DNA of 64,000 bases from Phycisphaerae bacterium (GCA_022072445.1 JAJVHV010000030.1:5971-69970), one strand, 5' to 3'. Shown: positions 51,179-63,887, counted from the first letter of the stretch. Numbers and translations are program-made. The notes: generated from the letters alone by a model not told the origin.

Positions 51179-54100
51179 CTACCTCACACTGAAATACCGC
51201 GCCGCGGGATGATGCGCGATCACCGCGCTGGTGCTCTGCTCCGGATCAAGCTGGTATTCGTCGCTGAGCGAAACGCCGATGCGCTGCGGCTCGAGCAACT
51301 GCATGAGCTTGGCCTGGTCTTCCAGGTTCGGGCAGGCCGGGTAGCCGAAGCTGAAGCGGCTGCCCTGGTAGCCCTGCTGAAACAGCTTCTGCCGCTCGCG
51401 GGCGTCGTCGCCGGCGATCCCAAGCTCCATCCGCACCTGCTTGTGCACGTATTCGGCCAGCGCCTCGGCGGTCTCGACGCCCAGGCCGTGCAGGAAGAGG
51501 TATTGCTGATACTCGTTGCGGGCGAACCACTCGCGGGCCACCTCGCTGACGCGCTGGCCGGCGGTCACCAGCGAAAGGGCGATCACGTCGGTCTCCCCGC
51601 TCTCGACCGGTCGCCAGAAGTCGGACAGACACCAGTGCGGCGGCTTCTGCTGCCGCGGGAAGGTGAAGCGGGCCACTTCACAGCCACGTTGCGACGGAGA
51701 CAAGGGCGAGCGAGAAGGTAGCCCGAATGAGCCACGGAGGGAGGGAGCGGCTCGATCGCTGGACAGGCCCGGAGAAGCGAGCGCAATCGGAGTCGATCCC
51801 GGCGCAGACGCCATCGACTCCAGTCCTTCCTTCCCCTTCGTGCCTCCGTGGCTTCCTGGCTTCGTGGCGCCTTCTCCTTTCGTGGCTTCGTGGCTTCGTG
51901 GCTTCGTGGCTGTGTCCCAGATGATCAGATCGTCGCCGTCGGAGTTGCAGGGCCAGTAGCCGTAGATGGCCTGCGGCCGGAGGATCGCCTCGCGCTCGCA
52001 ACGCGCGACCAGCTCGCGGTAGATCGGCCGCACGTCGCGGTCGATGTAGCGGCGGAAGTCATCGCCGGCGCGGCCGCGCTTGCGGAAGCCCCACTGCACC
52101 TGGAAGAGCATGATCTCGTTCATGTAGCCCAGAGCGGCCTTGAGCGGGATGTGCTCGAGCACGCGCGCACCCCAGAAGGGCGGCGCGGGAATGGCGTTGT
52201 CGATCGGGATTTCGGAGCGGCGGCGCGGCGGCGCGGCGGCGCGGGCGCGGTCAATCGCGCTGGCCGCGACGAGCGGGCCCTCGGCGACGGCGTCGTCATC
52301 CTCGGCGGTCTCGCCGATGGCGGCGAGGCCGAAGCGCTGCTCGGCGTCGAGGTCGAGGCGGCGCGGGGGTTGGGCGGCGGAGATCGACGCTGCTTCCAGG
52401 TCCGGGCGGTCCTTGCGTCCGAAGGAAACCCCTCCCTTACGGTCGGGGCTCGGCTGGGTGGCGGCGCTCGGCTGGGTGATTTCTCGTTCTTCCAACGCTT
52501 CGTCGCGTTGTCGCTTTTCCCCTTGGTCGTTTCGTCGCTCTGTCGCTTCGTCGCGTCGCCCCGTCGTCGCTTCGTCGCTTCGTCGCTTCGTCGCTGTGAT
52601 CTCCCCCATCAGCCGCAGACCCTCGAACGCGTCCTTCGCGTATGAGAGGCTTCCGGCGTAGAGCGGGCGCAGGTCGTTCTCGACGTAGCCGCGCGTCAGC
52701 GCGGCGCCGCCGAGGATGACCGGCACGCGGATGCCCTGCTCCTCGAGCACGAGCAGATCGTCGCGCATCACCAGCGTCGACTTCACCAGCAGGCCCGACA
52801 GCCCGATCGCGTCGGCGGCGTGCTCGCGCCAGGCGGCGATGACGTTGTTGATCGGCTGCTTGATGCCCAGGTTGAACACGCGGTAGCCGTTGTTGGTCAG
52901 AATGATGTCGACCAGGTTCTTGCCGATGTCGTGCACGTCGCCGCGGACGGTCGCCAGCACGATCCTGCCGCGCGACGTGTCGGCGGAGCGGTCCATGTGC
53001 GGCTCAAGCAGGGCGACGGCGGCTTTCATCGTCTCGGCGGACTTGAGCACGAAGGGGAGCTGCATCTGGCCCGAGCCGAAGAGGTCGCCGACGGTCTTCA
53101 TGCCGTCGAGCAGCAGGTTGTTGATGATGTCGAGCGGCGCGTAGGTCTGGAGCGCGACGGCGAGGTCGGCGTCGAGGCCGATTCTCTCGCCGTCGATGAT
53201 GCGGCGTTTGAGGCGCTCCTCGATGGGCAGGTCGGCGATCTTGACTTTCGTGCCGACTTGTTCGGTATCGGAGAAGAGGCCGATAAACCGAACCAGCGGG
53301 TCCTCATGTGGCACAGCCGCCCCCGGCTGTGAATGTGGCACAGCCGCCCCCGGCAGTGGCTGTGGCTGTGCCACATCGTAGATCAAATTCAGCGCCGCCT
53401 CCCAGCGCTCGTCGCTGATCTGATTGCGCGGCAGGATCTTGCTCGAATGCACGATCGCCGCGGTCAGGCCGCGCTGCCGGGCCTCGTGCAGGAACACAGA
53501 ATTGAGGACCGCGCGGGCGGCGGGGACAAGGCCGAAGCTGACGTTGCTGACGCCCAGGATCGACTGGCAGCGCGGGAAGCGCGTCATCACCGCTTCGATG
53601 CCGTCGAGCGTCTCGAGCGCCAGCCGCCGATCGGCCTCGTTGCCGGTCGTGATCGGGAATGTCAGGCAATCGAAGAAGATGTCCTCTTCGGCGACGCCGT
53701 ACTTGCGCGTGAGCAGGTCGTGAATGCGCGTGGCGATTTCGAGCTTGCGCTGCGCGGTCTTGGCCATGCTCTCGATCGGGTCTTCGTCGATCGTGAGCGC
53801 GACGACGGCGGCGCCGTATTGCCGCAGCAGCCGCGCGACGCGGGCCATCTTGACTTCGCCGTCCTCGAGGTTGACGGAGTTGACGATGCACTTGCCGCCG
53901 ATGAGCTTCAGGCCGGCTTCGATCACCTCGGGCTCGGTGCTGTCGAGCATGATGGGGACGTTGACGTCGACGGCGTAGCGGTCGGCGACGCGCGTCATGT
54001 CGGCGACGCCGTCGCGCCCGACGTAGTCGACGCACAGGTCGAGGACGTGCGCGCCTTCCTTCACCTGCTCGACGCCCACCTGCACCAGGCCCTCGATGTC

Positions 54101-55363
54101 GCCTTCCGCGAGCAGGCGTTTGAACTGCCGGCTGCCGTTGGTGTTGCTGCGCTCGCCGACGATCAGAAAGCTGTTGTCCTGGCGGTAGGGCATGGCCTGG
54201 TAAAGGCTGCTGCACGCCGCCTCACGAGATCGGCTCGGCGATGGGCCTAATGCAGAATGAAGAATGCAGAATGCAGAAGCGTCCTCCGTCGTCGAGCCGG
54301 GCTCAGGTTTCGTCGCCGGTGCGGGCGGATGCTCGGCGGACCCAGAAAGGCCGATTGCAGAGGCATCCGGCGACGAAGAACCGGTTTCTGCATTCCGCGT
54401 TCTGCATTCTGCATTGCTTTCTGCATTGCCGTGGAATCCGATCGCCTCCACCACCGCGCGCAGATGCGCCGGCGTCGTGCCGCAGCAGCCGCCGACGATC
54501 CGCACGCCGTCAACGTCGACGAACTCCTTCAGCCAGCGGGCCAGCTCGGCCGGCGCGAGCGGGAAGTGCGTACGCCCGCTGACGAGCTGCGGCAGGCCGG
54601 CGTTCGGCATCACGCTGATCGGACGCGTGCTGTTCCGCGCCAGATACCGCACGTGCTCGCTCATCTCCTGCGGCCCGGTGGCGCAGTTCAACCCGATTAC
54701 GTCGACTTCCGGATACGCCTCGATCGCCACCAGCGCGGCGGCGACGTCGGTGCCCACCAGCATCGTGCCGGTGGTCTCCATGGTTACCTGCACCATGAGC
54801 GGCAAGCGCTTGCCGGTTTTCTCGAACGCCGACAGCACGGCCCAGATCACGGCCTTGGCGTGCAGGATGTCCTGACACGTCTCGATCAGCATCGCGTCGC
54901 AGCCGCCGTCGATCAGCCCGCGGGCCTGCTCGCCGTAGCTCTCGAGCAGCCCGTCGTACGAAATCTGCCGCAGCGTCGGCAGCTTCGTCCCCGGACCGAG
55001 CGAGCCGACGACGAAGCGCGGCCGCGGCAGCGTCGAAAACGCCTCGCACGCCCGCCGCGCGATCTTCGCCGCCGCGACGTTGATCTCGTAGCAGCGGTCA
55101 GCCAGGCCGAACTCGGCCAGCACGTGCCGCATGCCGCCGAAGGTGTTGGTTTCGACCGCGTCGCAGCCGACGTCGAGAAAGCTGCGGTGAATTTGCTCGA
55201 CGGCGTCGGGGCGGGTGAGGTTCAGGACTTCGCAGCAGTTTTCGAGGCCGTTGTAGTCGCTCAGCGGCAGATCGAGCGCGTGGATGCTGGTGCCCATGGC
55301 GCCGTCGAGAAACACCACGCGCCGCCCGACGAGTTCCAGAAACGCCGATTCCGATCCGCGCAA
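51179..55363 (-). CDS. metH: cobalamin-dependent methionine synthase with four repeat-derived in-frame insertions
   Basis: All modules are present: Hcy-binding (VVFLDGAMGT..GGCCGTTP), pterin-binding (FLIVGERSNTNGS), B12-binding (GDVHDIGKNLV), AdoMet activation (PACPNLEDQ). 1394 codons from a TTG start. Confidence 0.95.
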   Translation of the reverse strand: MRGSESAFLELVGRRVVFLDGAMGTSIHALDLPLSDYNGLENCCEVLNLTRPDAVEQIHRSFLDVGCDAVETNTFGGMRHVLAEFGLADRCYEINVAAAKIARRACEAFSTLPRPRFVVGSLGPGTKLPTLRQISYDGLLESYGEQARGLIDGGCDAMLIETCQDILHAKAVIWAVLSAFEKTGKRLPLMVQVTMETTGTMLVGTDVAAALVAIEAYPEVDVIGLNCATGPQEMSEHVRYLARNSTRPISVMPNAGLPQLVSGRTHFPLAPAELARWLKEFVDVDGVRIVGGCCGTTPAHLRAVVEAIGFHGNAESNAECRTRNAETGSSSPDASAIGLSGSAEHPPAPATKPEPGSTTEDASAFCILHSALGPSPSRSREAACSSLYQAMPYRQDNSFLIVGERSNTNGSRQFKRLLAEGDIEGLVQVGVEQVKEGAHVLDLCVDYVGRDGVADMTRVADRYAVDVNVPIMLDSTEPEVIEAGLKLIGGKCIVNSVNLEDGEVKMARVARLLRQYGAAVVALTIDEDPIESMAKTAQRKLEIATRIHDLLTRKYGVAEEDIFFDCLTFPITTGNEADRRLALETLDGIEAVMTRFPRCQSILGVSNVSFGLVPAARAVLNSVFLHEARQRGLTAAIVHSSKILPRNQISDERWEAALNLIYDVAQPQPLPGAAVPHSQPGAAVPHEDPLVRFIGLFSDTEQVGTKVKIADLPIEERLKRRIIDGERIGLDADLAVALQTYAPLDIINNLLLDGMKTVGDLFGSGQMQLPFVLKSAETMKAAVALLEPHMDRSADTSRGRIVLATVRGDVHDIGKNLVDIILTNNGYRVFNLGIKQPINNVIAAWREHAADAIGLSGLLVKSTLVMRDDLLVLEEQGIRVPVILGGAALTRGYVENDLRPLYAGSLSYAKDAFEGLRLMGEITATKRRSDEATTGRRDEATERRNDQGEKRQRDEALEEREITQPSAATQPSPDRKGGVSFGRKDRPDLEAASISAAQPPRRLDLDAEQRFGLAAIGETAEDDDAVAEGPLVAASAIDRARAAAPPRRRSEIPIDNAIPAPPFWGARVLEHIPLKAALGYMNEIMLFQVQWGFRKRGRAGDDFRRYIDRDVRPIYRELVARCEREAILRPQAIYGYWPCNSDGDDLIIWDTATKPRSHEATKGEGATKPGSHGGTKGKEGLESMASAPGSTPIALASPGLSSDRAAPSLRGSFGLPSRSPLSPSQRGCEVARFTFPRQQKPPHWCLSDFWRPVESGETDVIALSLVTAGQRVSEVAREWFARNEYQQYLFLHGLGVETAEALAEYVHKQVRMELGIAGDDARERQKLFQQGYQGSRFSFGYPACPNLEDQAKLMQLLEPQRIGVSLSDEYQLDPEQSTSAVIAHHPAARYFSVR
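51836..51914. repeat. octamer array (tggcttcg)n ending tggctgtg, inside metH
   Basis: The perfect array lies at 51883-51914, with degenerate copies from 51836. It encodes TATKPRSHEATKGEGATKPGSHGGTKG. Confidence 0.85.
52448..52598. repeat. gctcggctgggtg x2 plus octamer array (tcgcttcg)n ending tcgctgtg, inside metH
   Basis: The 13-mers lie at 52448-52460 and 52466-52478; the octamer array lies at 52567-52598. It encodes ATKRRSDEATTGRRDEATERR.. Confidence 0.85.
53306..53376. repeat. 27-nt tandem repeat with hairpin-forming core, inside metH
   Basis: atgtggcacagccgcccccggc(tgtga/agtgg) x2, followed by the inverted ctgtggctgtgccacat. The cacagccg/cggctgtg arms are self-complementary. It encodes PGAAVPH x2. 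Confidence 0.85.
54249..54430. repeat. ~180-bp composite palindromic element inside metH
   Basis: Outer arms are (gcagaat)n at 54251-54280 and (attctgc)n at 54386-54430. Inner arms are ggtttcgtcgccgg at 54306-54319 and ccggcgacgaagaacc at 54367-54382. Confidence 0.85.
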
Positions 55364-56671: not shown

Positions 56672-57079
56672 ATGGAAACGTCCCCCGGCATCCTGGGTCG
56701 ATTGTCCGAAAAAGTGCTCGGTTGGATCGCGCTGGGCCTGCTCGTCGCGCTGGGAATCGCCATCTGGCAGACCCCCGCCGACACCAAGCAGGCCATCTGG
56801 AGTGGCGTCTGGCGCGCCACGGCGTGGCTTGCGATCGTCGCGACGTTGCCCTGGGCCAGCCGCCTCTTCATGGGTCGCGTGCTGGAGCAATCGTCGAACT
56901 GGGCCGGGGTGGCGCTGGTCGCCGCTTACTGCCTGGCGGACGTGATCGCGGCGGTGTGCCTGATGACGGTCTGGCCGGCGAGCGGTTGGGCCTGGTTCCT
57001 GAGCGCCGTCGCGCTGGCCATCGCAGGGACGTATAATTATCTGGTTTGCGAGTATGTCGCGGAACAATCGGGCCTATGA
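56672..57079 (+). CDS. small integral membrane protein
   Basis: Four hydrophobic helices (WIALGLLVALGIAIW, WLAIVATLPW, GVALVAAYCLADVIAAVCLM, AWFLSAVALAIAG). Confidence 0.6.
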   Translation: METSPGILGRLSEKVLGWIALGLLVALGIAIWQTPADTKQAIWSGVWRATAWLAIVATLPWASRLFMGRVLEQSSNWAGVALVAAYCLADVIAAVCLMTVWPASGWAWFLSAVALAIAGTYNYLVCEYVAEQSGL

Positions 57080-57122
57080 AGCCGATCTGTGAACAATGCG
57101 GGCGGCTTTGCGGGGTCGAGCG

Positions 57123-58196
57123 ATGAGCACGAAATATCAGACCGGGCTGCGCGTCAGCGAATACGTACTGGAAGAATGCGTCGGCAGCGGCGCGTTCGCC
57201 GAGGTTTGGCGCGCCCGGCATCACATTTGGGAGTCCGAACAGGTCGCGGTGAAACTGCCGCTCCAGCCCGAATTCGCGCGCTATCTGCGGCGCGAGGGCG
57301 CGGTGGTCCACGGCGTGCGGCACGCCAACGTCGTGCGCGTCCTGGGGATCGACCCGTACGGCGAGATTCCGTATCTGGTCATGGAGCTGGTGCGCGGTCC
57401 GTCGCTCAAAAGCGTGATCGTCGAGCATCGCACCGGCGTGCCGGTCGACCTGGCGCTGCGCGTTTTCCGCGGCATCCTGACCGGGTTGGCGGCCGCGCAC
57501 GAAGCGAATGTGATTCACCGCGACATCAAGCCGGGCAACATCCTGCTCGATCTCAATGGCAAGCCGCTGTCGGAGCTGCGCAGCGAGCAGGTGAAGCTGG
57601 GCGACTTCGGCTTCGGGCTGGCCGACGTCGACGCCATGCAGTCGATCGCGCAGTCGGCGTCGATCAGCCGCTCCGACGCTCTGGTCGGAACGATCGCGTA
57701 CATGGCCCCGGAGCTGCGCGACGGGCACGCGGCAGCCGACGAGAAGTCCGACCTGTACGCCGTCGGGGTGGTGCTCTTTGAGCTGCTGACCGGCGAGCGG
57801 CCGGCCGGCGCCGAGCTGCCCAGCAGTGTCCGGCCGGCGATCAGCCCGGCGCTCGACGAGCTATTCAAGAAACTCTATGCGCGGCACGACCGCCGCTACG
57901 CCTCGGCCAACGCCGTGCTGCACGACCTGGACGCGCGGGTGCCCGCCCCCGACGGGGCGCCCGGCGCGCCGCACCTGCCGCCCTTGCCCGAGTCGGGCCG
58001 CCCGCGTTCGTCGCGGGCGAACTGGACGTGCGGCTCGTGCCATCGGCCGGCCGATCCGGCCGACCAGTTCTGCATCCACTGCGGGGCCCAACTGGTCGAG
58101 CGCGTGCGGCGTTGTCCGGGCTGCGATGGGTTTCCCGGCGTGGACGATCGATTCTGCATTTTTTGCGGCGCGTCGCTGCCGCCCGTGACCACGTGA
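57123..58196 (+). CDS. Ser/Thr protein kinase with C-terminal double Zn ribbon
   Basis: ORF 57096..58196. GSGAFAEVWRA..VAVKLP, HRDIKPGNILLD, DFG, GTIAYMAPE. C-terminus CGSC..CIHCG and CPGC..CIFCG. Confidence 0.9.
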   Translation: MSTKYQTGLRVSEYVLEECVGSGAFAEVWRARHHIWESEQVAVKLPLQPEFARYLRREGAVVHGVRHANVVRVLGIDPYGEIPYLVMELVRGPSLKSVIVEHRTGVPVDLALRVFRGILTGLAAAHEANVIHRDIKPGNILLDLNGKPLSELRSEQVKLGDFGFGLADVDAMQSIAQSASISRSDALVGTIAYMAPELRDGHAAADEKSDLYAVGVVLFELLTGERPAGAELPSSVRPAISPALDELFKKLYARHDRRYASANAVLHDLDARVPAPDGAPGAPHLPPLPESGRPRSSRANWTCGSCHRPADPADQFCIHCGAQLVERVRRCPGCDGFPGVDDRFCIFCGASLPPVTT

Positions 58197-58207: not shown

Positions 58208-58504
58208 ATGCACGGCCAAGGCGTCATTGTCCTCTGGGTTTTCGGCCTGCTGTTCGTCGGCGTCATCGGCATCGCCATGCTGGTGCTTGTCGCCGTTCTG
58301 CGCGCCGGCGGCAGGATTTTCCGGCACGTCGGTTTGGCCATGGGCGAGACCGGCGGCCGCGGGTCGGCCCCCTCGGGTGCCGCGGGCCGGCCGCGCTTCT
58401 GCACGCGGCGCGGCTGCCTGCATCCCAACCGCGGCGCGGCCCGCTTCTGCGCCCGCTGTGGTCAGGCGCTCGGCGGCGGGTACGATACGGAACTGTATGG
58501 ATGA
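58208..58504 (+). CDS. small TM protein with cytoplasmic Zn ribbon
   Basis: VIVLWVFGLLFVGVIGIAMLVLVAVL helix, then CTRRGCLHPNRGAARFCARCG. The 3' end overlaps the next gene by 8 nt. Confidence 0.6.
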   Translation: MHGQGVIVLWVFGLLFVGVIGIAMLVLVAVLRAGGRIFRHVGLAMGETGGRGSAPSGAAGRPRFCTRRGCLHPNRGAARFCARCGQALGGGYDTELYG

Positions 58505-59969
58505 GATCGCGCGACAGCGGCAGTTTGAGGAGCAGTTCCTCCAGCAGATCCGCGCCAAGGCCGCCGGCCTGACGCGCGGCACCCTGCCCGCCGACCGCGT
58601 CGTCGTCGAAAAGGTGCCCGACGGCATCGACGGCGTGCGGGCCACGCTGAGCCGCCTGGAGGTCTTCGATCACGAGCTGCTGCACCGCATGCCGGGCACG
58701 CAGGCCTGCCAGCTCAAGTTCACACGCTCGATGCTCGGCGGCCTGATGGAGCGGACCGTCTCGCGGCTGCGGGCCGTCGTGCTCGCGCCGGTCGCCGCGC
58801 TGGCCACCGGTCAGGCGCCCGGACCGGTGACCCGCGAGGACGTGCTCAACGCGCTGGCTCGCTACGACCTGATGCCGCGCGGCATGAGACCCACCGGCGT
58901 GGTCTTCGCCGCGCCCACCGGCTTCAGCGACAGCGCCCGCTCGCTGGTGAACGGGCCCGGTTCGCCTACGGTGATTCTGATGGGCGGCCGGGCCGACGGC
59001 GGCTGGGACGTGAGCATGTCCGATGCGGTCGCGAAGAGTCCCTGGGGCAAGCTCTTCGAGCTCGAAACGCAGGACGAGCTGGTCAAGCGCCTCGCGCATC
59101 ATCTCGACGAGTCCGCCGACCTCGTCGATTCTCGCGGACTGTCGATCGAGGAGCTGAGCGAGAAACTCGGCGTGGACCGCGACAAGACCGAGACCCTGGT
59201 GCGCAAACTGGCCCGCACCGACCCGCGCATCATGACCGTCGCCCACGACGGCCGAACGCACGTGTGCCGTACACCCTTCGCCGAGGAGGGCTCTTCCATG
59301 AGTCTCTGGAGCCGAGTTCGCAGACTGCTGCGGCTGAAGCCGACCGTCGCCGAGCAGGTGCGCGAGATGACCGCGCAGCGCGTCAAGCTGGAGCAGCAGC
59401 GCTTCGAGATCGACCGCGCGGTCAACAAGCTCCAGGACGAAGAGGTGCGCATCGTCAAGAGCGGGGCCGCCGCCACCACCGACGTCGAAAAACGCCAGCT
59501 TGCCAGCAAGCTCGTGCGCCTGCGGCGCGACCTGGGCCGGCAAAAGGCCCAGGCCGACGTGCTCACCAAACAGATCGACATCATCGGCACGCACCTGCAC
59601 CATCTGACGCTGGCCGAGCGCGGGCGCCGCATGGAACTGCCCAAGGCCGAGGAGCTGACGCGCGAGGCGGCCCAGGCCGAACAGGTCATGGCCGATCTCT
59701 CGGCCAACGCCGAACTGGCCGTGGGCATCGAAGTTGGCGGCGGGGCGCAGGCCGTGTCGGATGAGGAAGCGGCGATCCTCGAAGAATTCGCGGCGGCGGC
59801 GGGGACGACGCCGGTGAAGGAAACGCCCGCGGCGGCGCCGGCGGCGGGCGAATCGGGACGGGTGGCGGATGCCGGCCGGTCAGGCCCGGTCCGCGCACCC
59901 AGCGCAGCGCCGCCGGTGCCTGGTGCGGCGGCGTCGAAGCGTGAGTCGGCGAAGCCGGAGATGGGGTAG
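58497..59969 (+). CDS. fusion protein: unknown N-terminal domain + wHTH-like segment + C-terminal ESCRT-III/Snf7-like coiled coil
   Basis: ORF 58227..59969; start ATG 58497 (MDEIARQRQFEE). C-terminal half SLWSRVRRLLRLKPTVAEQVREMTAQRVKLEQQRFEIDRAVNKLQDEE..LVRLRRDLGRQKAQADVL is paralogous to 60721..61326. Confidence 0.65.
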   Translation: MDEIARQRQFEEQFLQQIRAKAAGLTRGTLPADRVVVEKVPDGIDGVRATLSRLEVFDHELLHRMPGTQACQLKFTRSMLGGLMERTVSRLRAVVLAPVAALATGQAPGPVTREDVLNALARYDLMPRGMRPTGVVFAAPTGFSDSARSLVNGPGSPTVILMGGRADGGWDVSMSDAVAKSPWGKLFELETQDELVKRLAHHLDESADLVDSRGLSIEELSEKLGVDRDKTETLVRKLARTDPRIMTVAHDGRTHVCRTPFAEEGSSMSLWSRVRRLLRLKPTVAEQVREMTAQRVKLEQQRFEIDRAVNKLQDEEVRIVKSGAAATTDVEKRQLASKLVRLRRDLGRQKAQADVLTKQIDIIGTHLHHLTLAERGRRMELPKAEELTREAAQAEQVMADLSANAELAVGIEVGGGAQAVSDEEAAILEEFAAAAGTTPVKETPAAAPAAGESGRVADAGRSGPVRAPSAAPPVPGAAASKRESAKPEMG

Positions 59970-59985: not shown

Positions 59986-60351
59986 ATGGACATGGCAAGT
60001 GCGCTGCCCACAGAGCTGCTGTTGCGTAAGCCCGTCGGCGAAGAAACTCTGCGTGAGCTTGTTCGCCGCATCGCCCAGCTTCGTAGCGACGCTTGCATCA
60101 TTCTGTTTGGGTCGCGGGCGCGCGGGGACGCACGGCCGGGGAGCGATCTTGATCTGATGGTTATCACGCAGGCGGATCGGAGTCCGCTGGCGATCGCGGG
60201 CGATCTCTACGCGGCACTGGCGGACCGTGATTTCGGGTTAGATATCGTCGTCATGCCGCGCGACCGCGTGCGGCGGGCACGAGACGGGTTCGATCCTTTT
60301 CTGAACGAGGTGCTCGCACAAGGCAGAGTCCTGCATGGCCGACTGCATTGA
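59986..60351 (+). CDS. minimal nucleotidyltransferase (MNT/MntA-type antitoxin), pair 1
   Basis: ORF 59869..60351; start ATG 59986. ILFGSRARGDARPGSDLDLMV (GSxxxGxxxxxSDxDL). Confidence 0.85.
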   Translation: MDMASALPTELLLRKPVGEETLRELVRRIAQLRSDACIILFGSRARGDARPGSDLDLMVITQADRSPLAIAGDLYAALADRDFGLDIVVMPRDRVRRARDGFDPFLNEVLAQGRVLHGRLH

Positions 60352-60724
60352 CTTTGAAGACTGGCTGGCCAAAGCGGAGGGAGATCGAGAAGGCGCCATG
60401 CTGCTGATGCGCGAATTCAGCAAATCTATCGCCGGCCTGATTGCCTTTTTGTGTCAGCAGTCGGTGGAGAAGTACCTCAAGGCGCTCCTGGTGCGTCAAC
60501 GAGTCTCTTTTCCTCGTACGCATGACCTGGCGGCGCTTGCGGCAGGCAGCTATCCGGACATCGCTCGAATTCAGCCATCGCTCGCGCGACTTCAGCCGTA
60601 TGCGGTTAATGTGCGATACCCTGGATTTGATCCGGAGCGCCCCGAATGCGAAGAGGCGATCGGCCATCTGGAACGAGTCCGGTCACATTGCCGCGAGCTG
60701 CTCGAATTGGGTGAGTGCGAATGA
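60335..60724 (+). CDS. HEPN-domain protein (HepT-type toxin), pair 1
   Basis: Overlaps the MNT gene by 17 nt. QQSVEKYLKALL..FPRTHDLAAL..AVNVRYP HEPN pattern. Confidence 0.85.
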   Translation: MADCIDFEDWLAKAEGDREGAMLLMREFSKSIAGLIAFLCQQSVEKYLKALLVRQRVSFPRTHDLAALAAGSYPDIARIQPSLARLQPYAVNVRYPGFDPERPECEEAIGHLERVRSHCRELLELGECE

Positions 60725-61326
60725 ACTTCTTCACCTGGCTGACGACCAAACGCAAGACGCTCGCGACGATGAGCGCCGCCGAGCTGCGCGCCCAGGAGAT
60801 GATGCTCGAGAACGAGCGCGACCGCATGCTGAAGCGCATGGAGAAGCTGGCCGGCGAGAAGCACCAGGTGATCGAGCGCGGCGCGAAGGAACGCACGCCC
60901 GAGCTGCGTAAGACCTACGCGCAGCAGTTCGACCTGCTGCACACCGAGCAGATGATGCTCAGCCGGCACCTGAACATCCGCAGCAAGGAGCTGCTGACCG
61001 TCTCGCGGCTGCGCATGCTGCGCGAGACGGCCCAGCGGGCCGGCACCGGCATGGGTGCGTTCGGCACGATTCGCGAAAAGGATCTGGCGGTGATCGAGGC
61101 CCTGATCGAGAACGACAAGGTCACCACCGACATGTACCAGGAGCGGCTCGACGCGATCCTGCAGATCGGCGCGGCGGCGGACGAGGAGGCGACCGGCCTT
61201 TCGGCGGCGGCGGGCGAGCTGCTCAAGGTCTGGAACGACATGGACGCCGGGCTGATCTCCAACACGGCCGAAGCGTTCGACGAGGCGGAGAAGCGGGTGC
61301 GTGAGAGAAACAGAGCAGCGGAGTAG
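60721..61326 (+). CDS. ESCRT-III/Snf7-like coiled-coil protein (paralogue 2)
   Basis: ORF 60715..61326. ATG 60721 forms an ATGA overlap with the HEPN stop. The ~200-aa helical protein has a basic N-terminus, long heptad hairpin pattern and acidic C-terminal part. The family call is by eye only. Confidence 0.55.
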   Translation: MNFFTWLTTKRKTLATMSAAELRAQEMMLENERDRMLKRMEKLAGEKHQVIERGAKERTPELRKTYAQQFDLLHTEQMMLSRHLNIRSKELLTVSRLRMLRETAQRAGTGMGAFGTIREKDLAVIEALIENDKVTTDMYQERLDAILQIGAAADEEATGLSAAAGELLKVWNDMDAGLISNTAEAFDEAEKRVRERNRAAE

Positions 61327-61332
61327 CCTCAT

Positions 61333-61701
61333 ATGCAACGACGCCCGAACCAGCGCGAAAACCGCGAGGCGCTCCGCGGCCCGATTGACAATCGCGTCAT
61401 TGGACAAATCGTAGACCGCTTGTCCAAGCGGTTGCCGGACTGCTGCATTGTGCTTTTCGGCTCCCGGGCCTACGGAACGCCGACCAGCCAGAGTGACGTT
61501 GATCTGCTGGTGGTGGCCCCGTCGCAACGTGACCCGTACGTGCTCTGCGGCGAACTACATCGCGAACTCAGTCCACGGGATTTCTCCGTTGATCTACTGG
61601 TCATGACGCCCGAGACTTTTCGTCAGCGCCGCTCACGGTTTGATCCGTTTTTTGCAGAACTCACCTCAAAGGGCCGCGTCCTGCATGGTCATCTCCCCTG
61701 A
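61333..61701 (+). CDS. minimal nucleotidyltransferase (MNT), pair 2
   Basis: VLFGSRAYGTPTSQSDVDLLVV. Paralogous to pair 1 through the C-terminal KGRVLHG. Confidence 0.85.
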   Translation: MQRRPNQRENREALRGPIDNRVIGQIVDRLSKRLPDCCIVLFGSRAYGTPTSQSDVDLLVVAPSQRDPYVLCGELHRELSPRDFSVDLLVMTPETFRQRRSRFDPFFAELTSKGRVLHGHLP

Positions 61702-62071
61702 TGCGGCGGAATGGGTCGATCGCGCCGAAGGGGACGTGCGCGCGCTTCGGAAGCTCGACCCAGTCGAGGATCGTGTCGTCGTGGCGTTTCTCGCTCAGCA
61801 GGCCGCGGAGAAGTACCTGAAGGCCACTCTGGTCAACAGCCGGATATGCTTTCCAAAACCACACGACTTGGTCGCGCTCGTCTCCCTGTGTCGGCAGATC
61901 AGTGATGAATTCGAGTCGTTGGTGGGCGCTGCCGCCGTGTTGCAGCCCTTTGCGGTGGACGTGCGATATCCCGGACCCGCCCCCGGAGAGGCCGCCGTGC
62001 GGGCGGCGATTGAGAATATGGACGTGATCCGAACCTTTTGCCGCGAGAGGCTTGCGCTGCAAGCGCCCTGA
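61685..62071 (+). CDS. HEPN-domain protein, pair 2
   Basis: ORF 61640..62071; start ATG 61685 gives a 17-nt overlap with the MNT gene. QQAAEKYLKATL..FPKPHDLVAL..AVDVRYP. Confidence 0.85.
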   Translation: MVISPDAAEWVDRAEGDVRALRKLDPVEDRVVVAFLAQQAAEKYLKATLVNSRICFPKPHDLVALVSLCRQISDEFESLVGAAAVLQPFAVDVRYPGPAPGEAAVRAAIENMDVIRTFCRERLALQAP

Positions 62072-62095: not shown

Positions 62096-62713
62096 ATGGC
62101 CCTATTCAAGTCAAAAGAAGAGCGCCGCATCGAGCAGGACATCAAGATCCGCCAGGGCATCCGCCGGATCGAGAAGTCCATCAGCGAGCAGAGCAAGTTC
62201 ACCGACGAGTTCGTGAAGAACGCCCGGCATGCGAAACAGATCGGCGACAACGGGCAGTATGTCTTCATCCGCAACTCGCTCAAGAAGACCGCCACCATCA
62301 AGAAGCTGCTCGAACGGCAGCTTCTGAGCGTCAAAAACGCGCTGCTGATCAAACGCCAGGCCGAGGCCTCGGCCGATTTCGCCAACGCCATGAGCCTGAT
62401 GGCCCGCGAAGTGGGCAAGCTCTACGGCGACACCGATCTCGTGAAGACGCAGACCGACTGGGAGAAGGCGCTGCTGCAGAGCCAGACGATGGAGGAGCGC
62501 ATGCAGATGTTCCTCGATTCGATCGAAAGCGGCGCCGCGGCCGACATCGCCGCCTCGCCGACGGCCGCCGAAGCGATCAGCGACGACGAGATCGACCGCA
62601 TGATCGCGGTTGAGGAGCAGGTGGAGAAGGCGAAGGAGACGCAGCAGATGTCGGCGCTGCGGGCGGAGCTGGCGGAGCTGAAGGGGGAGAGTAAGGATAA
62701 GGAGACGAAGTGA
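62096..62713 (+). CDS. ESCRT-III/Snf7-like coiled-coil protein (paralogue 3)
   Basis: GGAG 8 nt upstream of the ATG. MALFKSKEERRIEQDIKIRQGIRRIEKSI.., FANAMSLMAREVGKL, acidic ISDDEIDRMIAVEE, terminal amphipathic helix LRAELAELK. By eye it aligns along its length with CHMP2/Vps2-type proteins. Confidence 0.6.
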   Translation: MALFKSKEERRIEQDIKIRQGIRRIEKSISEQSKFTDEFVKNARHAKQIGDNGQYVFIRNSLKKTATIKKLLERQLLSVKNALLIKRQAEASADFANAMSLMAREVGKLYGDTDLVKTQTDWEKALLQSQTMEERMQMFLDSIESGAAADIAASPTAAEAISDDEIDRMIAVEEQVEKAKETQQMSALRAELAELKGESKDKETK

Positions 62714-62850: not shown

Positions 62851-63549
62851 GTGAGAGCATTGCCGATTAAGCCGCAGAAGTGGTTAGAGATGCTTGCTGA
62901 GGACTTGGTGCGCGACATCACGTCCAACCACTCGTTGCGCAGGTACACGACAAACGCGGATCTGCTTGGGGCGTGGGCTGAAGCGTGCGTACGAAACCTG
63001 ATTGCTCGCATGGTTCATCCGCTGCGAGTCTCACGCGGTGCGATCGTTTACGAAGGCATTTGCCCGGACGAAGTCCCAGAGCTGGATGCCATCGTGTGGA
63101 CCGCCGCACCCGTGCCGGCGGTCTTCGATCTTGGCGACTTTGCAATAGTACCGCGCGGCTCGGCCGTTGCTTTTCTTGAAGTCAAGCGAAGCGCGTACAC
63201 CGGCGTAAGCGACCGGATGCGCAAGACGCTCAACGGTACTGAGTGTCTCATCACACATTGCGAGCAAGAAAAGGGAACGCGCTTGGACGGAGAGGCTCTG
63301 GGTGTCGTCTGCATGAAGAGAGAGGACCAGAAACTCGACCGCACACTCCAAAGGCTCATGGACGACCAGAAGGCTGTTCTGCTCCTTGAGGAGAAGAATG
63401 GGTCCTGGAGGGCCATGGCGAGGGACGTACTTCGGCTTGTGAACTTTCTCGCGGCGGTGCGGGTCCGTGCGTTCGTCCTTGCATCCCAGCTCGGCGTAAA
63501 CACCGAGATTCTGGCTCCGGTACTAGGTAGCGACGGGACAGCGTCATGA
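62851..63549 (+). CDS. PD-(D/E)xK nuclease-fold-like protein of unknown function
   Basis: GTG start (alternative ATG 62890). VPELDAIVW ... AVAFLEVKRS gives a D...E-x-K arrangement. The stop forms an ATGA overlap with the MNT pair 3 start. Confidence 0.5.
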   Translation: MRALPIKPQKWLEMLAEDLVRDITSNHSLRRYTTNADLLGAWAEACVRNLIARMVHPLRVSRGAIVYEGICPDEVPELDAIVWTAAPVPAVFDLGDFAIVPRGSAVAFLEVKRSAYTGVSDRMRKTLNGTECLITHCEQEKGTRLDGEALGVVCMKREDQKLDRTLQRLMDDQKAVLLLEEKNGSWRAMARDVLRLVNFLAAVRVRAFVLASQLGVNTEILAPVLGSDGTAS

Positions 63550-63887
63550 TCGGTATCTGCACGCCCGTTCGAGTCACCGACGAACGGATCGCCGAAGTCG
63601 TGCGCCGCCTGGTCGAGGCGTTGCATCCGCAGCGCATCTACCTCTTCGGCTCGCATGCCTACGGAACGCCTCACGCGGACAGCGACGTCGACCTCCTTGT
63701 GCTGGTTGATGACGCCGAGCTGACGCAGGACGATCATGACCAGCGCGGCTATCGCTCTCTGCGCGGGATGTTTCTACCCATCGAGCTGCACATTCGAGGT
63801 CGGCAGGCGTTCGAACGGCGCGCGGTCGCTCCTCACAGTTTCGAGAACGAGATCCTGCGAAAGGGCAAGCTGCTCTATGCCGCGTGA
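63546..63887 (+). CDS. minimal nucleotidyltransferase (MNT), pair 3
   Basis: YLFGSHAYGTPHADSDVDLLVLV. Confidence 0.85.
   Translation: MIGICTPVRVTDERIAEVVRRLVEALHPQRIYLFGSHAYGTPHADSDVDLLVLVDDAELTQDDHDQRGYRSLRGMFLPIELHIRGRQAFERRAVAPHSFENEILRKGKLLYAA

What the first reader, a model, noticed from the sequence alone, without database searches (positions are those of the whole stretch)
58497..59969. 490-aa fusion of an unknown domain, a wHTH-like segment and an ESCRT-III-like C-terminal half
Residues ~270-430 (SLWSRVRRLLRLKPTVAEQVREMTAQRVKLEQQRFEIDRAVNKLQDEEVRIVKSGAAATTDVEKRQLASKLVRLRRDL..) align by eye, position for position, with the stand-alone protein at 60721-61326. The N-terminal ~265 aa has no motif I can name. 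One segment (GVVFAAPTGFSDSARSLV) recalls Mrr-type restriction-fold C-terminal strands, and another (SIEELSEKLGVDRDKTETLVRKLARTDPRI) looks like a winged helix. Winged-helix modules preceding ESCRT-III subunits are reminiscent of ESCRT-II/Vps20-type logic, but that link is speculative.
Basis: inference. Interest (0 to 1): 0.6.

Follow-up and report, generated by a model that had tools for sequence, protein, structure and literature searches.

The report
Bacterial ESCRT-III-like protein with Vps4-like partner
This 490-residue protein of FtsZ-less Phycisphaerae bacteria joins an adaptor-like front half to a probable ESCRT-III-type membrane-remodelling back half, and sits in a conserved operon with two more such proteins, a kinase and a Vps4/CdvC-like ATPase, a pairing that recent reviews say bacteria lack.

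Summary
The ORF is real. It runs 58497-59969 on the + strand, encodes 490 aa, and is conserved at full length across Phycisphaerae.

AlphaFold2 gives three modules:
- A confident alpha/beta domain (aa 1-190) with only sub-threshold Mrr-like hints.
- A five-helix module (a0-a5, aa 268-436) in ESCRT-III order.
A disordered tail follows and ends in a conserved R-x-x-x-P-E-x-G peptide.

ESCRT-III homology is probable, not proven:
- Pfam Snf7 is below threshold.
- The family profile's best natural hit among all PDB sequences is archaeal CdvB (E=0.0027, in register).

The main new result is the context. Across 63 loci the order is membrane protein, Ser/Thr kinase, Zn-ribbon membrane protein, target, 201-aa protein, 205-aa protein, CdvC/Vps4-like AAA ATPase. 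In this genome the ATPase starts 305 nt past the window end.

I found no description of this operon in the literature library. My reading is that the target nucleates or adapts a bacterial ESCRT-III/Vps4-like membrane-remodelling machine. It could be the division machine, but that is untested.

The parts
56672..57079 (+). 135-aa multi-pass membrane protein, the first gene of the conserved cluster
   Evidence: Hydrophobic segments were found by hydropathy on its L007 orthologue. It is present upstream of the target in 54 of 55 loci with enough flank. No Pfam family.
57096..58196 (+). Ser/Thr protein kinase with a C-terminal double zinc ribbon
   Evidence: Pfam Pkinase E=7e-37 and DZR E=6e-6. 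It lies upstream of the target in 56 of 56 loci.
58208..58504 (+). 98-aa protein with an N-terminal membrane segment and a 4-Cys zinc ribbon. Its stop overlaps the target's start by 8 nt.
   Evidence: NCBIfam 4Cys_prefix_kin scores 24.3 bits against a cut-off of 24. A hydrophobic N-terminus is seen on the L007 orthologue. The same 8-nt overlap occurs in L001, L003, L006 and L007.
58497..59066 (+). Target aa 1-190: a confident alpha/beta domain whose fold is unassigned. It may be a degenerate PD-(D/E)xK/Mrr-like fold.
59070..59276 (+). Target aa ~192-260: winged-helix domain
59298..59339 (+). Target aa 268-281: invariant Met followed by a short basic-hydrophobic helix (a0-like), MSLWSRVRRLLRLK
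   Evidence: AF2 predicts a helix at aa 270-277. M268 is ATG in 61 of 61 loci. True stand-alone homologues start at this position. The hydrophobic moment is not above shuffles (p=0.25).
59346..59804 (+). Target aa 284-436: ESCRT-III-like core, with an a1/a2-3 hairpin, a conserved ELPKAEELT linker, then a4 and a5
59805..59966 (+). Target aa 437-490: disordered Pro/Ala-rich tail ending in the conserved peptide (A/S)(K/R)PE(M/L/I)G
   Evidence: pLDDT is below 50. P487 and E488 are invariant in the close family. Distant homologues end in ...R-x-x-x-P-E-A-G.
59986..60724 (+). NTase (MNT-type) and HEPN gene pair: a variable insertion, not part of the core system
   Evidence: Precomputed Pfam NTP_transf_2 and HEPN on the identical contig L071. 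This pair is absent at this position in L001, L003 and L007.
60721..61326 (+). 201-aa protein (E201), a paralogue of the target's C-terminal half
   Evidence: hhalign of the C-half family against the E201 family gives E=1.9e-5 over 93 columns. Identity across Phycisphaerae is 66-79%. It lies downstream of the target in 57 of 60 loci. It has no direct hit to Snf7, CdvB or PspA.
61333..62071 (+). Second NTase and HEPN pair (variable insertion)
   Evidence: 52% and 62% identity to the Pfam-annotated L005 pair. Pfam annotation on L071.
62096..62713 (+). 205-aa protein (E205): N-terminal MxLFKSK, ESCRT-III-like, with a near-terminal helix MSALRAELxxLK
   Evidence: Identity across Phycisphaerae is 72-88%. 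hhalign against a Snf7+CdvB profile gives P=5.1e-4 over 94 in-register columns, with a reversed control of 0.42. The C-terminal motif is present in 117 of 120 homologues, but the strict MIM1 consensus in none. It stays next to the AAA ATPase even in the distant genome L067.
62851..63549 (+). 232-aa ORF of unknown function: a variable insertion unique to this genome among the loci examined
   Evidence: No Pfam, NCBIfam or PADLOC hit. No homologue in any of the other loci searched.
63546..63887 (+). Third NTase. Its HEPN partner and then the CdvC/Vps4-like AAA ATPase (380 aa, window-equivalent 64305-65447) lie just beyond the window end.
   Evidence: L071 is identical to the window over 7,552 bp with 0 mismatches. 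It continues with HEPN, an AAA gene (PF00004, AAA_lid_3, Vps4_C weak), a 92-aa membrane protein and the ~590-aa protein.

Best explanation
The 490-aa protein is the adaptor or nucleator subunit of a bacterial ESCRT-III/Vps4-like membrane-remodelling machine that is conserved in Phycisphaerae.

Shown:
- It is a conserved fusion of a structured alpha/beta domain, a winged helix and a five-helix module with ESCRT-III helix order, ending in a conserved C-terminal peptide.
- It is always encoded with a Ser/Thr kinase and a small Zn-ribbon membrane protein upstream.
- It is nearly always followed by two ~200-aa helical proteins, one of which is a detectable paralogue of its C-half.
- A single-domain AAA+ ATPase usually follows. 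That ATPase aligns end to end with the archaeal CdvC model and carries a Vps4-type C-terminal helix.

Inferred:
- The a0 helix and the basic hairpin bind the cytoplasmic membrane.
- The alpha/beta + wH head docks on a membrane partner, most simply the translationally coupled Zn-ribbon protein or the 135-aa membrane protein, or possibly on DNA. This would fix where polymerisation starts, much as CdvA/CdvB-wH or ESCRT-II/Vps20 do.
- The C-half then co-polymerises with the 201-aa and 205-aa proteins.
- The ATPase remodels or disassembles the polymer by engaging C-terminal peptides: the E205 MSALRAELxxLK helix and the target's Pro-rich tail with the RPExG end.
- The kinase times the process.

The cellular job is membrane constriction, scission or repair. 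Cytokinesis in these FtsZ-less binary-fission bacteria is one possibility.
For: Fusion and conservation:
- 186 homologues were found. The top 120 are all full length at 51-66% identity.
- Distant full-length homologues of 23-29% identity keep the architecture and the terminal PExG.

Fold:
- The full-length AF2 model has mean pLDDT 83.6, with the N-terminal 260 residues above 90.
- The C-half model shows a0-a5.

ESCRT-III link:
- CdvB is the best natural hit of the C-half profile among 177,635 PDB sequences, E=0.0027, with profile positions 5-85 aligned to chain residues 2-86.
- hhalign gives Snf7 P=0.0013 and CdvB P=6.5e-4, against reversed controls of 0.15-0.16.
- E205 against Snf7+CdvB gives P=5.1e-4. 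The C-half against E201 gives E=1.9e-5.
- JGI annotates P0313 as CdvB.

ATPase:
- NCBIfam CdvC aligns residues 13-369 to model positions 17-365 of 370 at 229-241 bits. This is the top score for two of three orthologues and within 1.4 bits of CDC48 for the third.
- Pfam Vps4_C scores 23.5 bits against a cut-off of 21.3.
- Identity to VPS4 is 38% over 274 columns, including the C-terminal helix.

Operon:
- STK 56/56, TM135 54/55, E201 57/60, E205 49/54, AAA within 10 kb 31/42.
- In this genome the AAA gene sits 305 nt past the window end.
- The modules persist in a genome where the target is only 27% identical.

Other:
- It is not a known defence system.
- Recent papers state that Vps4-like ATPases or ESCRT components other than PspA/Vipp1 are absent from bacteria (PMC7619361, PMC10936438).
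- How FtsZ-less Phycisphaerae divide is described as unknown (PMC6952346, PMC5147048).
Against: - No curated ESCRT-III model reaches threshold. Snf7 scores 12.7 bits against 27.3. Consensus sequences of all three families miss Snf7 and PspA. DUF489 recurs as often as or more often than Snf7 among the weak hits.
- E201 has no direct link to any ESCRT-III sequence. E205 has no detectable link to the target's C-half.
- The ATPase is about as close to Cdc48-D2 as to CdvC. It lacks the Vps4 beta-domain. Its N-terminal domain shows no sequence match to MIT.
- The strict MIM1 consensus is absent from E205.
- The AAA gene is not within 10 kb in 11 of 42 loci.
- There is no experimental data of any kind.
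Confidence: 0.6

Rival explanations
1. It is a Psp-like envelope-stress or membrane-repair system rather than a division or scission machine. On this reading the ESCRT-III-like proteins coat and stabilise damaged inner membrane as PspA, Vipp1 and LiaH do. The membrane proteins sense stress, and the kinase and ATPase regulate assembly.
For: PspA/Vipp1 are the established bacterial members of the ESCRT-III superfamily, and repair is their conserved role (PMC7619361). In the distant genome L067 a PspC-domain gene sits directly beside the E205-AAA pair. True stand-alone homologues of the C-half lie near Band_7/SPFH genes. That partnership is known for PspA and for archaeal ESCRT systems (PMC10936438).
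Against: No family shows any similarity to PspA_IM30 (hhalign P=0.09-0.35). The weak sequence links go to CdvB/Snf7 instead. The hairpin helices of about 42 and 46-50 residues are shorter than I recall for PspA (from memory). A Vps4/CdvC-type ATPase is the hallmark of the Snf7-type branch, not of Psp systems. The very high conservation (E205 72-88%, AAA 68-79%) and fixed synteny suggest a core housekeeping role.
Confidence: 0.2
2. The C-terminal half and the two ~200-aa proteins are generic coiled-coil or hairpin proteins unrelated to ESCRT-III. The cluster would then be a kinase-regulated AAA+ unfoldase or extraction system of unknown purpose, for example protein quality control at the membrane.
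Against: - The signals, though weak, are all in register from the N-terminus and beat reversed controls by two orders of magnitude.
- CdvB is the single best natural hit in a database-wide search.
- The helix order is a0-a5, the size is ~200 aa, and there are three paralogue-like genes in a row.
- The CdvC model aligns over the full length, including the N-domain and the Vps4-type C-terminal helix.
Confidence: 0.13
3. It is a DNA-linked function. The Mrr-like domain plus winged helix would bind DNA, so the protein tethers the nucleoid or a specific locus to the membrane (segregation or nucleoid occlusion), or acts as a defence-type sensor. The coiled-coil part would serve only for oligomerisation.
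For: Restriction-fold plus wHTH is a common DNA-binding pair. Conserved arginines lie on the recognition helix and wing: R236, R240, R244 and R258. FtsK lies about 5 kb upstream in several genomes. NTase/HEPN pairs are interspersed, and kinase and AAA models of PADLOC match the neighbours.
Against: - The PD-(D/E)xK assignment is sub-threshold and no catalytic residues are conserved.
- In ESCRT-II and in CdvB, wH domains are protein-binding modules (from established knowledge).
- PADLOC hits are generic kinase and AAA matches only, with none for the target, E201, E205 or the 590-aa protein.
- NTase/HEPN pairs are variable insertions absent from compact operons such as L007.
- The cluster is syntenic and vertically conserved, unlike defence islands.
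Confidence: 0.07

Closest known systems
Archaeal Cdv system (CdvA, CdvB/ESCRT-III with winged helix, CdvC/Vps4) of Sulfolobales and Thaumarchaeota
   Same: - Several ESCRT-III-like paralogues are encoded next to a single-domain AAA+ ATPase of ~370-380 aa that aligns end to end with the NCBIfam CdvC model.
- One ESCRT-III-like subunit is fused to a winged helix.
- CdvB is the best sequence hit of the C-half profile.
- The host lineage lacks FtsZ (PMC6952346).
   Different: - The winged helix lies N-terminal to the ESCRT-III module, not C-terminal, and is preceded by an extra 190-aa alpha/beta domain.
- No Pfam family, and so no PRC-barrel domain, was detected in the neighbouring genes scanned. 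A dedicated search for a CdvA homologue was not made.
- A Ser/Thr kinase, a Zn-ribbon membrane protein and a ~590-aa protein are part of the cluster.
- The ATPase scores far below the CdvC equivalog cut-off (229-241 bits against 650), and its N-domain is not recognisable as MIT.
- The host is a bacterium.
Eukaryotic/Asgard ESCRT-II, Vps20, ESCRT-III and Vps4 pathway
   Same: The logic is a winged-helix module upstream of an ESCRT-III polymer that is recycled by a Vps4-type ATPase. There are multiple ESCRT-III paralogues. E205 has an MGLF-type N-terminus and a near-terminal amphipathic helix placed where MIM1 sits in Vps2/CHMP2.
   Different: Here wH and ESCRT-III are one polypeptide with a single wH, not the tandem wH pairs of Vps22, Vps25 and Vps36. 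The strict MIM1 consensus is not met (0 of 120). There are no ESCRT-I, ubiquitin-binding or Vps4 beta-domain elements.
Bacterial PspA/Vipp1/LiaH (ESCRT-III superfamily) systems
   Same: Both are bacterial, built on a helical hairpin with an N-terminal a0, and encoded with small membrane proteins and an AAA+ protein. A PspC-domain gene is adjacent in one distant genome.
   Different: There is no detectable similarity to PspA_IM30. The hairpin is shorter. The ATPase is a classic-clade Vps4/CdvC/Cdc48-type enzyme rather than the sigma54 activator PspF.
Sporadic bacterial Snf7-clade or Vps4-like AAA+ neighbourhoods reported by Ravi et al. 2024 (PMC11237479)
   Same: That paper reports transfers of VPS4-like ATPases to some bacteria and occasional bacterial Snf7/PspA genes next to AAA+ ATPases. 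It interprets these as ATP-dependent membrane remodelling.
   Different: In the transferred cases snf7 is said to be replaced by a TPR-6TM gene. Planctomycetes are not mentioned in the main text (0 occurrences). The alpha/beta-wH-ESCRT-III fusion, the kinase and Zn-ribbon module and the lineage-wide conservation in Phycisphaerae are not described there.

Membership tests
ESCRT-III superfamily (Pfam Snf7 PF03357 / PspA_IM30 PF04012) | Sequence match above the curated Pfam gathering score | tested here: not met
   The target scores 12.7 bits for Snf7 (E=0.1) against a cut-off of 27.3. Snf7 is hit by 3 of 40 and 4 of 42 family members, best E=0.0045. Consensus sequences of all three families miss Snf7 and PspA.
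ESCRT-III superfamily | Remote homology to a bona fide member detectable by profile methods, in register | tested here: inconclusive
   The C-half profile against all PDB sequences puts CdvB 9s9j as the best natural hit, E=0.0027 (domain E=0.0044), with profile positions 5-85 aligned to chain residues 2-86. hhalign gives P=0.0013 (Snf7), 6.5e-4 (CdvB) and 5.1e-4 (E205 against Snf7+CdvB), with reversed controls of 0.15-0.44. These signals are consistent but marginal.
ESCRT-III superfamily | Helix order a0, then a1/a2-3 hairpin, then a4 and a5, in a module of about 170-220 residues | tested here: met
   The AF2 model of the C-half has helices 3-10, 17-58, 62-111, 117-142 and 155-169, with pLDDT above 90 for residues 11-130. 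The same helices appear in the full-length model. This is a prediction, not a solved structure.
ESCRT-III superfamily | Structural similarity to solved ESCRT-III proteins exceeding that to unrelated helical hairpins | tested here: not met
ESCRT-III superfamily | Self-assembly into membrane-bound filaments through the hairpin and a domain-swapped a5 | not testable with these tools
   This needs purified protein with liposomes and EM, or multimer structure prediction.
ESCRT-III/Vps4 system | Genomic linkage of ESCRT-III genes with a Vps4-type AAA ATPase | tested here: met
   The AAA gene lies within 10 kb downstream in 31 of 42 loci. In this genome it is at window-equivalent 64305-65447. E205 and the AAA gene remain adjacent in distant genome L067.
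Vps4/CdvC ATPases | Single classic-clade AAA domain followed by the Vps4-type C-terminal helix | tested here: met
   Pfam AAA E=2.6e-39, AAA_lid_3, and Vps4_C at 23.5 bits against a cut-off of 21.3. Identity to VPS4A/Vps4 is 38% over 274 columns through the C-terminal helix. Archaeal Vps4/CdvC and katanin align to the end of the chain.
Vps4/CdvC ATPases | N-terminal MIT domain | tested here: inconclusive
   A conserved ~70-residue N-domain exists. It is included in the end-to-end CdvC model alignment. On its own it hits only TPR families weakly, with no MIT or CdvC hit, and hhalign to two MIT sequences gives P=0.47.
Vps4/CdvC ATPases | NCBIfam CdvC equivalog score, and closer to CdvC than to other classic-clade ATPases | tested here: not met
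   It scores 229-241 bits against a cut-off of 650. CDC48 scores 222-234 bits on the AAA domain alone. Cdc48/VAT D2 and archaeal Vps4 score about equally on the C-terminal part.
Vps4 (eukaryotic type) | Beta-domain inserted in the small AAA subdomain | tested here: not met
   hhalign leaves the VPS4 beta-domain region as a gap.
MIM1-bearing ESCRT-III (Vps2/CHMP2, Did2/CHMP1) | C-terminal (D/E)xxLxxRLxxL(K/R) helix | tested here: not met
   The strict consensus is present in 0 of 120 E205 homologues. The related [LM]xxL[RK]xxLxxL[KR] pattern (MSALRAELxxLK) is present in 117 of 120, lying 8-10 residues from the C-terminus where measured.
Winged helix-turn-helix fold | Three-helix bundle plus beta-hairpin wing | tested here: met
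ESCRT-II (Vps22/Vps25/Vps36) | Tandem pair of winged helices per subunit | tested here: not met
   Only one wH is predicted, at aa 192-260. The preceding domain is alpha/beta.
Mrr_cat / PD-(D/E)xK restriction-endonuclease fold | Pfam match above threshold and a conserved D...(D/E)xK catalytic signature | tested here: not met
   Mrr_cat is hit by 3 of 42 members. The best is E=0.023 at 15.2 bits against a cut-off of 21, and covers only profile positions 79-107. The invariant residues of the long beta-hairpin are F75 and R92, with no conserved acidic-x-Lys. The fold itself remains possible but unassigned.
Known anti-phage defence systems (PADLOC) | Match of the system-specific proteins to a PADLOC model | tested here: not met
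   There are no hits for the target, E201, E205, the Zn-ribbon protein, the 135-aa protein or the 590-aa protein. Only generic kinase (PD-T4-6) and AAA (IetA) similarities appear.

The most novel reading that the evidence does not exclude
Phycisphaerae lack FtsZ yet divide by binary fission. The most novel reading is that they constrict and cut the cell with this ESCRT-III/Vps4-like operon. The 490-aa protein would be the site-selecting nucleator, combining CdvA/ESCRT-II-like and ESCRT-III-like roles in one chain. It might also be made in two forms from one gene through the invariant internal Met268. That would be a bacterial counterpart of the archaeal Cdv division machine.
Probability: 0.2. 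Interest if true: 0.95.

Novelty: new variant of a known kind. Interest (0 to 1): 0.8.

Why it matters
Current reviews state that bacteria have ESCRT-III relatives only of the PspA/Vipp1 type and no Vps4-like partner (PMC7619361, PMC10936438). How FtsZ-less planctomycetes divide is called a major open question (PMC5147048, PMC6952346).

A lineage-wide, highly conserved operon in Phycisphaerae couples three probable ESCRT-III-like proteins to a CdvC/Vps4-like ATPase, a kinase and membrane anchors. Two things would follow:
- The ESCRT-III + Vps4 principle would extend to bacteria. This bears on whether that pairing predates the archaeal lineage or was transferred.
- The division question would get a concrete, testable candidate machine. 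At least one cultured strain, RAS1, carries the kinase-to-E205 part of the cluster; its AAA gene is not within the 8 kb examined downstream.

The fused alpha/beta + wH head would also be a new way of coupling site selection to ESCRT-III nucleation.

Tried and rejected
- Pairwise BLASTP of the target against the 201-aa and 205-aa proteins was not significant.
- Pfam and NCBIfam on single sequences, on 40 and 42 family members and on consensus sequences gave nothing above threshold. DUF489 (HflD) recurs slightly more often than Snf7, but all these are sub-threshold helical matches.
- The full-length family profile against PDB sequences hit only a designed coiled coil.
- Foldseek against PDB returned only wH hits at E about 1e-2.
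- hhalign of the E205 family against the target C-half and against E201 gave nothing. hhalign of E201 against Snf7, CdvB and PspA gave nothing.
- The MIT test of the ATPase N-domain by Pfam, NCBIfam, PDB and hhalign was negative or inconclusive.
- The amphipathicity of a0 by hydrophobic moment was not above shuffles (p=0.25).
- The Shine-Dalgarno hypothesis for an internal start at M268 was not supported. GGAGG is present in only 8 of 61 loci, and a 4-nt or longer match in 32 of 61.
- Several '~200-aa stand-alone homologues' turned out to be fragments from contigs under 1.3 kb that cluster with full-length proteins. Only L069 and L070 are verified true stand-alones.
- A defence-system reading was rejected.
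- A genome-contig scan with the divergent alignment A7 failed for lack of a conserved stretch. It was repeated with A1, which reaches only close relatives, so the phyletic breadth outside Phycisphaerae is not established.
Full report
**1. The observation**

The window has about 67% G+C. It comes from a Phycisphaerae (Planctomycetota) metagenome-assembled genome. The ORF from ATG 58497 to the stop at 59969 encodes 490 aa. It is identical to a deposited 'hypothetical protein' (P0001).

The mechanical ORF list starts at an upstream TTG (58227). All homologues, however, begin MDE..RQFE. The upstream gene (58208-58504) ends 8 nt inside the ORF, and the same overlap is seen in other genomes.

In the AlphaFold2 model they correspond to a strand-helix (aa 133-150), a winged helix (aa ~192-260) and the start of a long helical module (aa 268 onward).

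The claim that residues ~270-430 align 'position for position' with the protein at 60721-61326 is only weakly true:
- BLASTP gives E=0.11 and 23% identity over 79 residues.
- At family level, hhalign gives E=1.9e-5, probability 78%, over 93 columns from the N-terminal Met through a1 into a2.
- Reversed-sequence controls give 0.12-0.16.

**2. What the protein is**

It is not an orphan. There are 186 homologues, and the best 120 are all full length (470-515 aa) at 51-66% identity. None has a name or a Pfam domain. An exhaustive profile search found 287 representatives (E up to 0.001). These include about 40 full-length proteins of only 23-29% identity that keep the same architecture.

The AF2 model has mean pLDDT 83.6 and shows the following:
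- aa 1-190 form an alpha/beta domain with pLDDT above 90.
- aa 192-260 form a winged helix.
- aa 262-267 form a short, poorly predicted linker.
- aa 270-277 form a short helix.
- Long helices span aa 284-325, 329-374 and 384-436.
- The Pro/Ala-rich tail is disordered.

A second model of the C-half alone used a more diverse alignment. It resolves a0 (3-10), a1 (17-58), a2/3 (62-111), a4 (117-142) and a5 (155-169), with pLDDT above 90 over residues 11-130. This is the canonical ESCRT-III helix order.

Other conserved features:
- M268, directly before a0, is invariant.
- G142-F143 and G168-G169-W170 survive even in the most distant homologues.
- The otherwise unalignable tail ends in ...ARPE(L/I/M)G in close relatives and ...R-x-x-x-P-E-A-G in distant ones. 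This is the signature of a short linear binding motif.

**3. Testing the three domain assignments**

*N-terminal domain: unassigned.*
- Foldseek lists only Rpb5 at rank 34.
- Pfam Mrr_cat appears in 3 of 42 diverse members. The one alignment inspected (P0258, E=0.023, below threshold) covers only the last strand-helix-strand.
- No acidic/Lys catalytic signature is conserved.

If this is a restriction-endonuclease fold, it is a degenerate, non-catalytic one.

*C-terminal half: probably a divergent ESCRT-III module, but not a demonstrated family member.*

Against:
- Snf7 scores 12.7 bits against a cut-off of 27.3.
- Weak Snf7 hits recur (3/40 and 4/42) but no more often than DUF489.
- Consensus sequences hit nothing.

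For:
- The family profile searched against all 177,635 PDB sequences finds archaeal CdvB (9s9j) as the best natural protein. E=0.0027, as one contiguous in-register alignment from residue 2.
- hhalign gives P=0.0013 to a small Snf7 alignment and P=6.5e-4 to CdvB. Reversed controls give 0.15-0.16.
- JGI's pipeline independently named a distant full-length homologue 'division protein CdvB (Snf7/Vps24/ESCRT-III family)'.

PspA shows no signal.

**4. The surroundings change the picture**

In every related genome the target sits in the same gene order:
1. 135-aa multi-pass membrane protein
2. Ser/Thr kinase with a double zinc ribbon
3. ~95-aa membrane protein with a 4-Cys zinc ribbon
4. the target
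5. a 201-aa protein
6. a 202-205-aa protein
7. a 371-385-aa AAA+ ATPase
8. a small membrane protein (in some loci it carries a TM2 domain), where present
9. a ~590-aa protein
10. DeoC

Counts over 63 non-redundant loci:

| Gene | Present / loci with enough flank |
|---|---|
| Kinase | 56/56 |
| 135-aa membrane protein | 54/55 |
| 201-aa protein (E201) | 57/60 |
| 205-aa protein (E205) | 49/54 |
| ATPase within 10 kb | 31/42 |
| ~590-aa protein | 23/36 |

The window ends before the ATPase. Contig L071 is identical to the window over 7,552 bp and shows the ATPase at window-equivalent 64305-65447, followed by the ~590-aa gene.

The NTase/HEPN pairs that separate the genes in the window are variable insertions. 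They are absent from compact versions such as L007.

In genome L067 the target is only 27% identical, and the cluster is split into two modules:
- kinase, Zn-ribbon protein, target and E201
- Zn-ribbon protein, PspC, E205, one unrelated gene, and the ATPase

E205 there is 67% identical and the ATPase 61% identical.

**5. The partners**

*The ATPase.*
- It matches Pfam AAA, AAA_lid_3 and Vps4_C (23.5 bits against a cut-off of 21.3).
- It aligns end to end with the NCBIfam CdvC model (residues 13-369 against model positions 17-365 of 370) at 229-241 bits. This is the best score for two of three orthologues and within 1.4 bits of CDC48 for the third. It is far below the equivalog cut-off of 650.
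- It is 38% identical to human and yeast Vps4 over 274 columns, through the C-terminal helix, and it lacks the beta-domain.
- Cdc48-D2 is about equally similar.
- Its conserved ~70-residue N-domain has only weak TPR-like matches and cannot be shown to be MIT by sequence.

*E201* is 66-79% conserved. It is linked to the target's C-half (E=1.9e-5) but not directly to any ESCRT-III sequence.

*E205* is 72-88% conserved.
- It starts MGLFKSK.
- It aligns in register with a Snf7+CdvB profile: P=5.1e-4 over 94 columns, with a reversed control of 0.42.
- It carries MSALRAELxxLK near its C-terminus in 117 of 120 homologues. This sits where MIM1 lies in Vps2/CHMP2, but the strict MIM1 consensus is not met.

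None of the system-specific proteins matches a PADLOC defence model.

**6. Separate halves**

Many ~200-aa 'stand-alone' matches begin exactly at the M268 position. Several are fragments from contigs under 1.3 kb that cluster with full-length proteins.

Two are verified free-standing genes with no N-domain coding upstream (L069 and L070). Both lie near Band_7/SPFH genes.

I did not find the N-terminal half as a separate neighbouring gene.

The invariant internal ATG raises the possibility of a second, short product. A Shine-Dalgarno-like GGAGG precedes it in only 8 of 61 loci, so this remains an open idea.

**7. How it most likely works (confidence 0.6)**

The target is the adaptor or nucleator of an ESCRT-III/Vps4-like membrane-remodelling machine.

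Shown: the architecture, the conservation, the operon, the paralogy with E201, and the CdvC-like architecture of the ATPase.

Inferred:
- a0 and the hairpin bind the membrane.
- The alpha/beta + wH head docks on the co-translated Zn-ribbon protein or another membrane partner and fixes the site.
- The target co-polymerises with E201 and E205.
- The ATPase engages the C-terminal peptides and remodels the polymer.
- The kinase controls timing.

The cellular role could be cytokinesis in these FtsZ-less, binary-fission bacteria, membrane repair, or vesicle formation. I put cytokinesis at about 0.2 overall.

Rivals:
- A Psp-like repair system (0.2).
- Generic coiled coils with an unrelated AAA+ unfoldase (0.13).
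- A DNA-tethering role for the Mrr-like + wH head (0.07).

**8. Comparison with what is known, and novelty**

The closest systems are the archaeal Cdv machinery and the ESCRT-II/Vps20/ESCRT-III/Vps4 pathway. In Cdv, CdvB carries a C-terminal wH and the ATPase is CdvC. PspA/Vipp1 are the known bacterial superfamily members.

The literature states the following:
- Reviews say a Vps4-like ATPase 'appears absent in bacteria' (PMC7619361).
- ESCRT components are identifiable in archaea 'but not in bacteria' (PMC10936438).
- One comparative study notes sporadic transfers of VPS4-like ATPases to bacteria, with snf7 displaced, and occasional bacterial Snf7/PspA-AAA+ neighbourhoods. It does not mention planctomycetes in its main text (PMC11237479).

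Searches combining planctomycetes or Phycisphaerae with ESCRT terms found no description of this operon. The library does not cover subscription journals.

I therefore rate it a new variant of a known kind. The principle is ESCRT-III plus Vps4. It appears here in a bacterial lineage and with a new fused head and a new regulatory module.

**9. Verdict**

The remaining weakness is that every ESCRT-III membership test is marginal or sub-threshold, and there is no experiment. Interest 0.8.

Noticed in passing
window 59986-60724, 61333-62071, 63546-63887 (and L005, L006, L071): Three NTase (MNT-type)/HEPN gene pairs sit in successive intergenic gaps of the conserved operon. Other genomes carry such pairs in different gaps of the same operon, or none, so these gaps look like an insertion hot spot for toxin-antitoxin-like modules.
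   Followed up: partly
window 59298-59300 (Met268 of the target); 61 related loci: The internal ATG directly before the a0 helix is invariant in 61 of 61 loci, and true stand-alone homologues start there. A purine-rich stretch (E-E-G codons) lies 8-15 nt upstream, but GGAGG is present in only 8 of 61. Internal initiation giving a 223-aa ESCRT-III-like product is possible but unproven.
   Followed up: partly
window 59949-59966 (target C-terminus) and homologues: The extreme C-terminal peptide (A/S)(K/R)PE(M/L/I)G follows an unalignable Pro/Ala-rich tail. Distant homologues end in R-x-x-x-P-E-A-G. It is probably a short linear binding motif whose partner is unknown.
   Followed up: partly
L067 1056-4920 (CP030884.1, a distant genome): A PspC-domain gene and a Zn-ribbon protein lie directly beside the E205 and AAA ATPase pair, which are here separated from the kinase-target-E201 module. 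This hints at a link to Psp-type membrane sensing.
   Followed up: no
L069 6699-6982 and L070 6751-8619: Both verified free-standing homologues of the C-terminal half have a Band_7/SPFH gene a few kb downstream. In L070 it is fused to double zinc ribbons. SPFH-ESCRT-III and SPFH-PspA associations are reported in the literature (PMC10936438).
   Followed up: no
homologues P0149, P0201 (E201 family) and P0313 (distant target homologue): JGI automated names differ from 'hypothetical'. Two E201 homologues are called 'septum formation topological specificity factor MinE'. One distant full-length target homologue is called 'division protein CdvB (Snf7/Vps24/ESCRT-III family)'. The basis of these names was not traceable.
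   Followed up: no
window 51179-55363 (- strand): A methionine synthase-like ORF of 1,394 aa, judged by eye from its sequence (not scanned against Pfam), carries low-complexity inserts. Examples are repeated PGAAVPH units and ATKPRSHEATKG-like repeats within otherwise conserved sequence.
   Followed up: no
window 62851-63549: A 232-aa ORF between E205 and the third NTase has no Pfam, NCBIfam or PADLOC hit and no homologue in any of the other related loci searched. It is called as 219 aa on the identical contig L071.
   Followed up: partly
L003 378-2879, L007 2587-5034: FtsK, followed by an MlaE/ABC pair and QueF, lies about 3-8 kb upstream of the cluster in several genomes. This may be mere synteny, but it places the operon near a chromosome-segregation and division gene.
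   Followed up: no
L007 14383-16161 (the ~590-aa protein; window-equivalent beyond 65.8 kb): A conserved ~590-aa soluble protein (37-55% identity) follows the ATPase. It has no Pfam or PADLOC match, and by eye its C-terminal half looks repeat-like or beta-rich. It may be a further component of the system.
   Followed up: no
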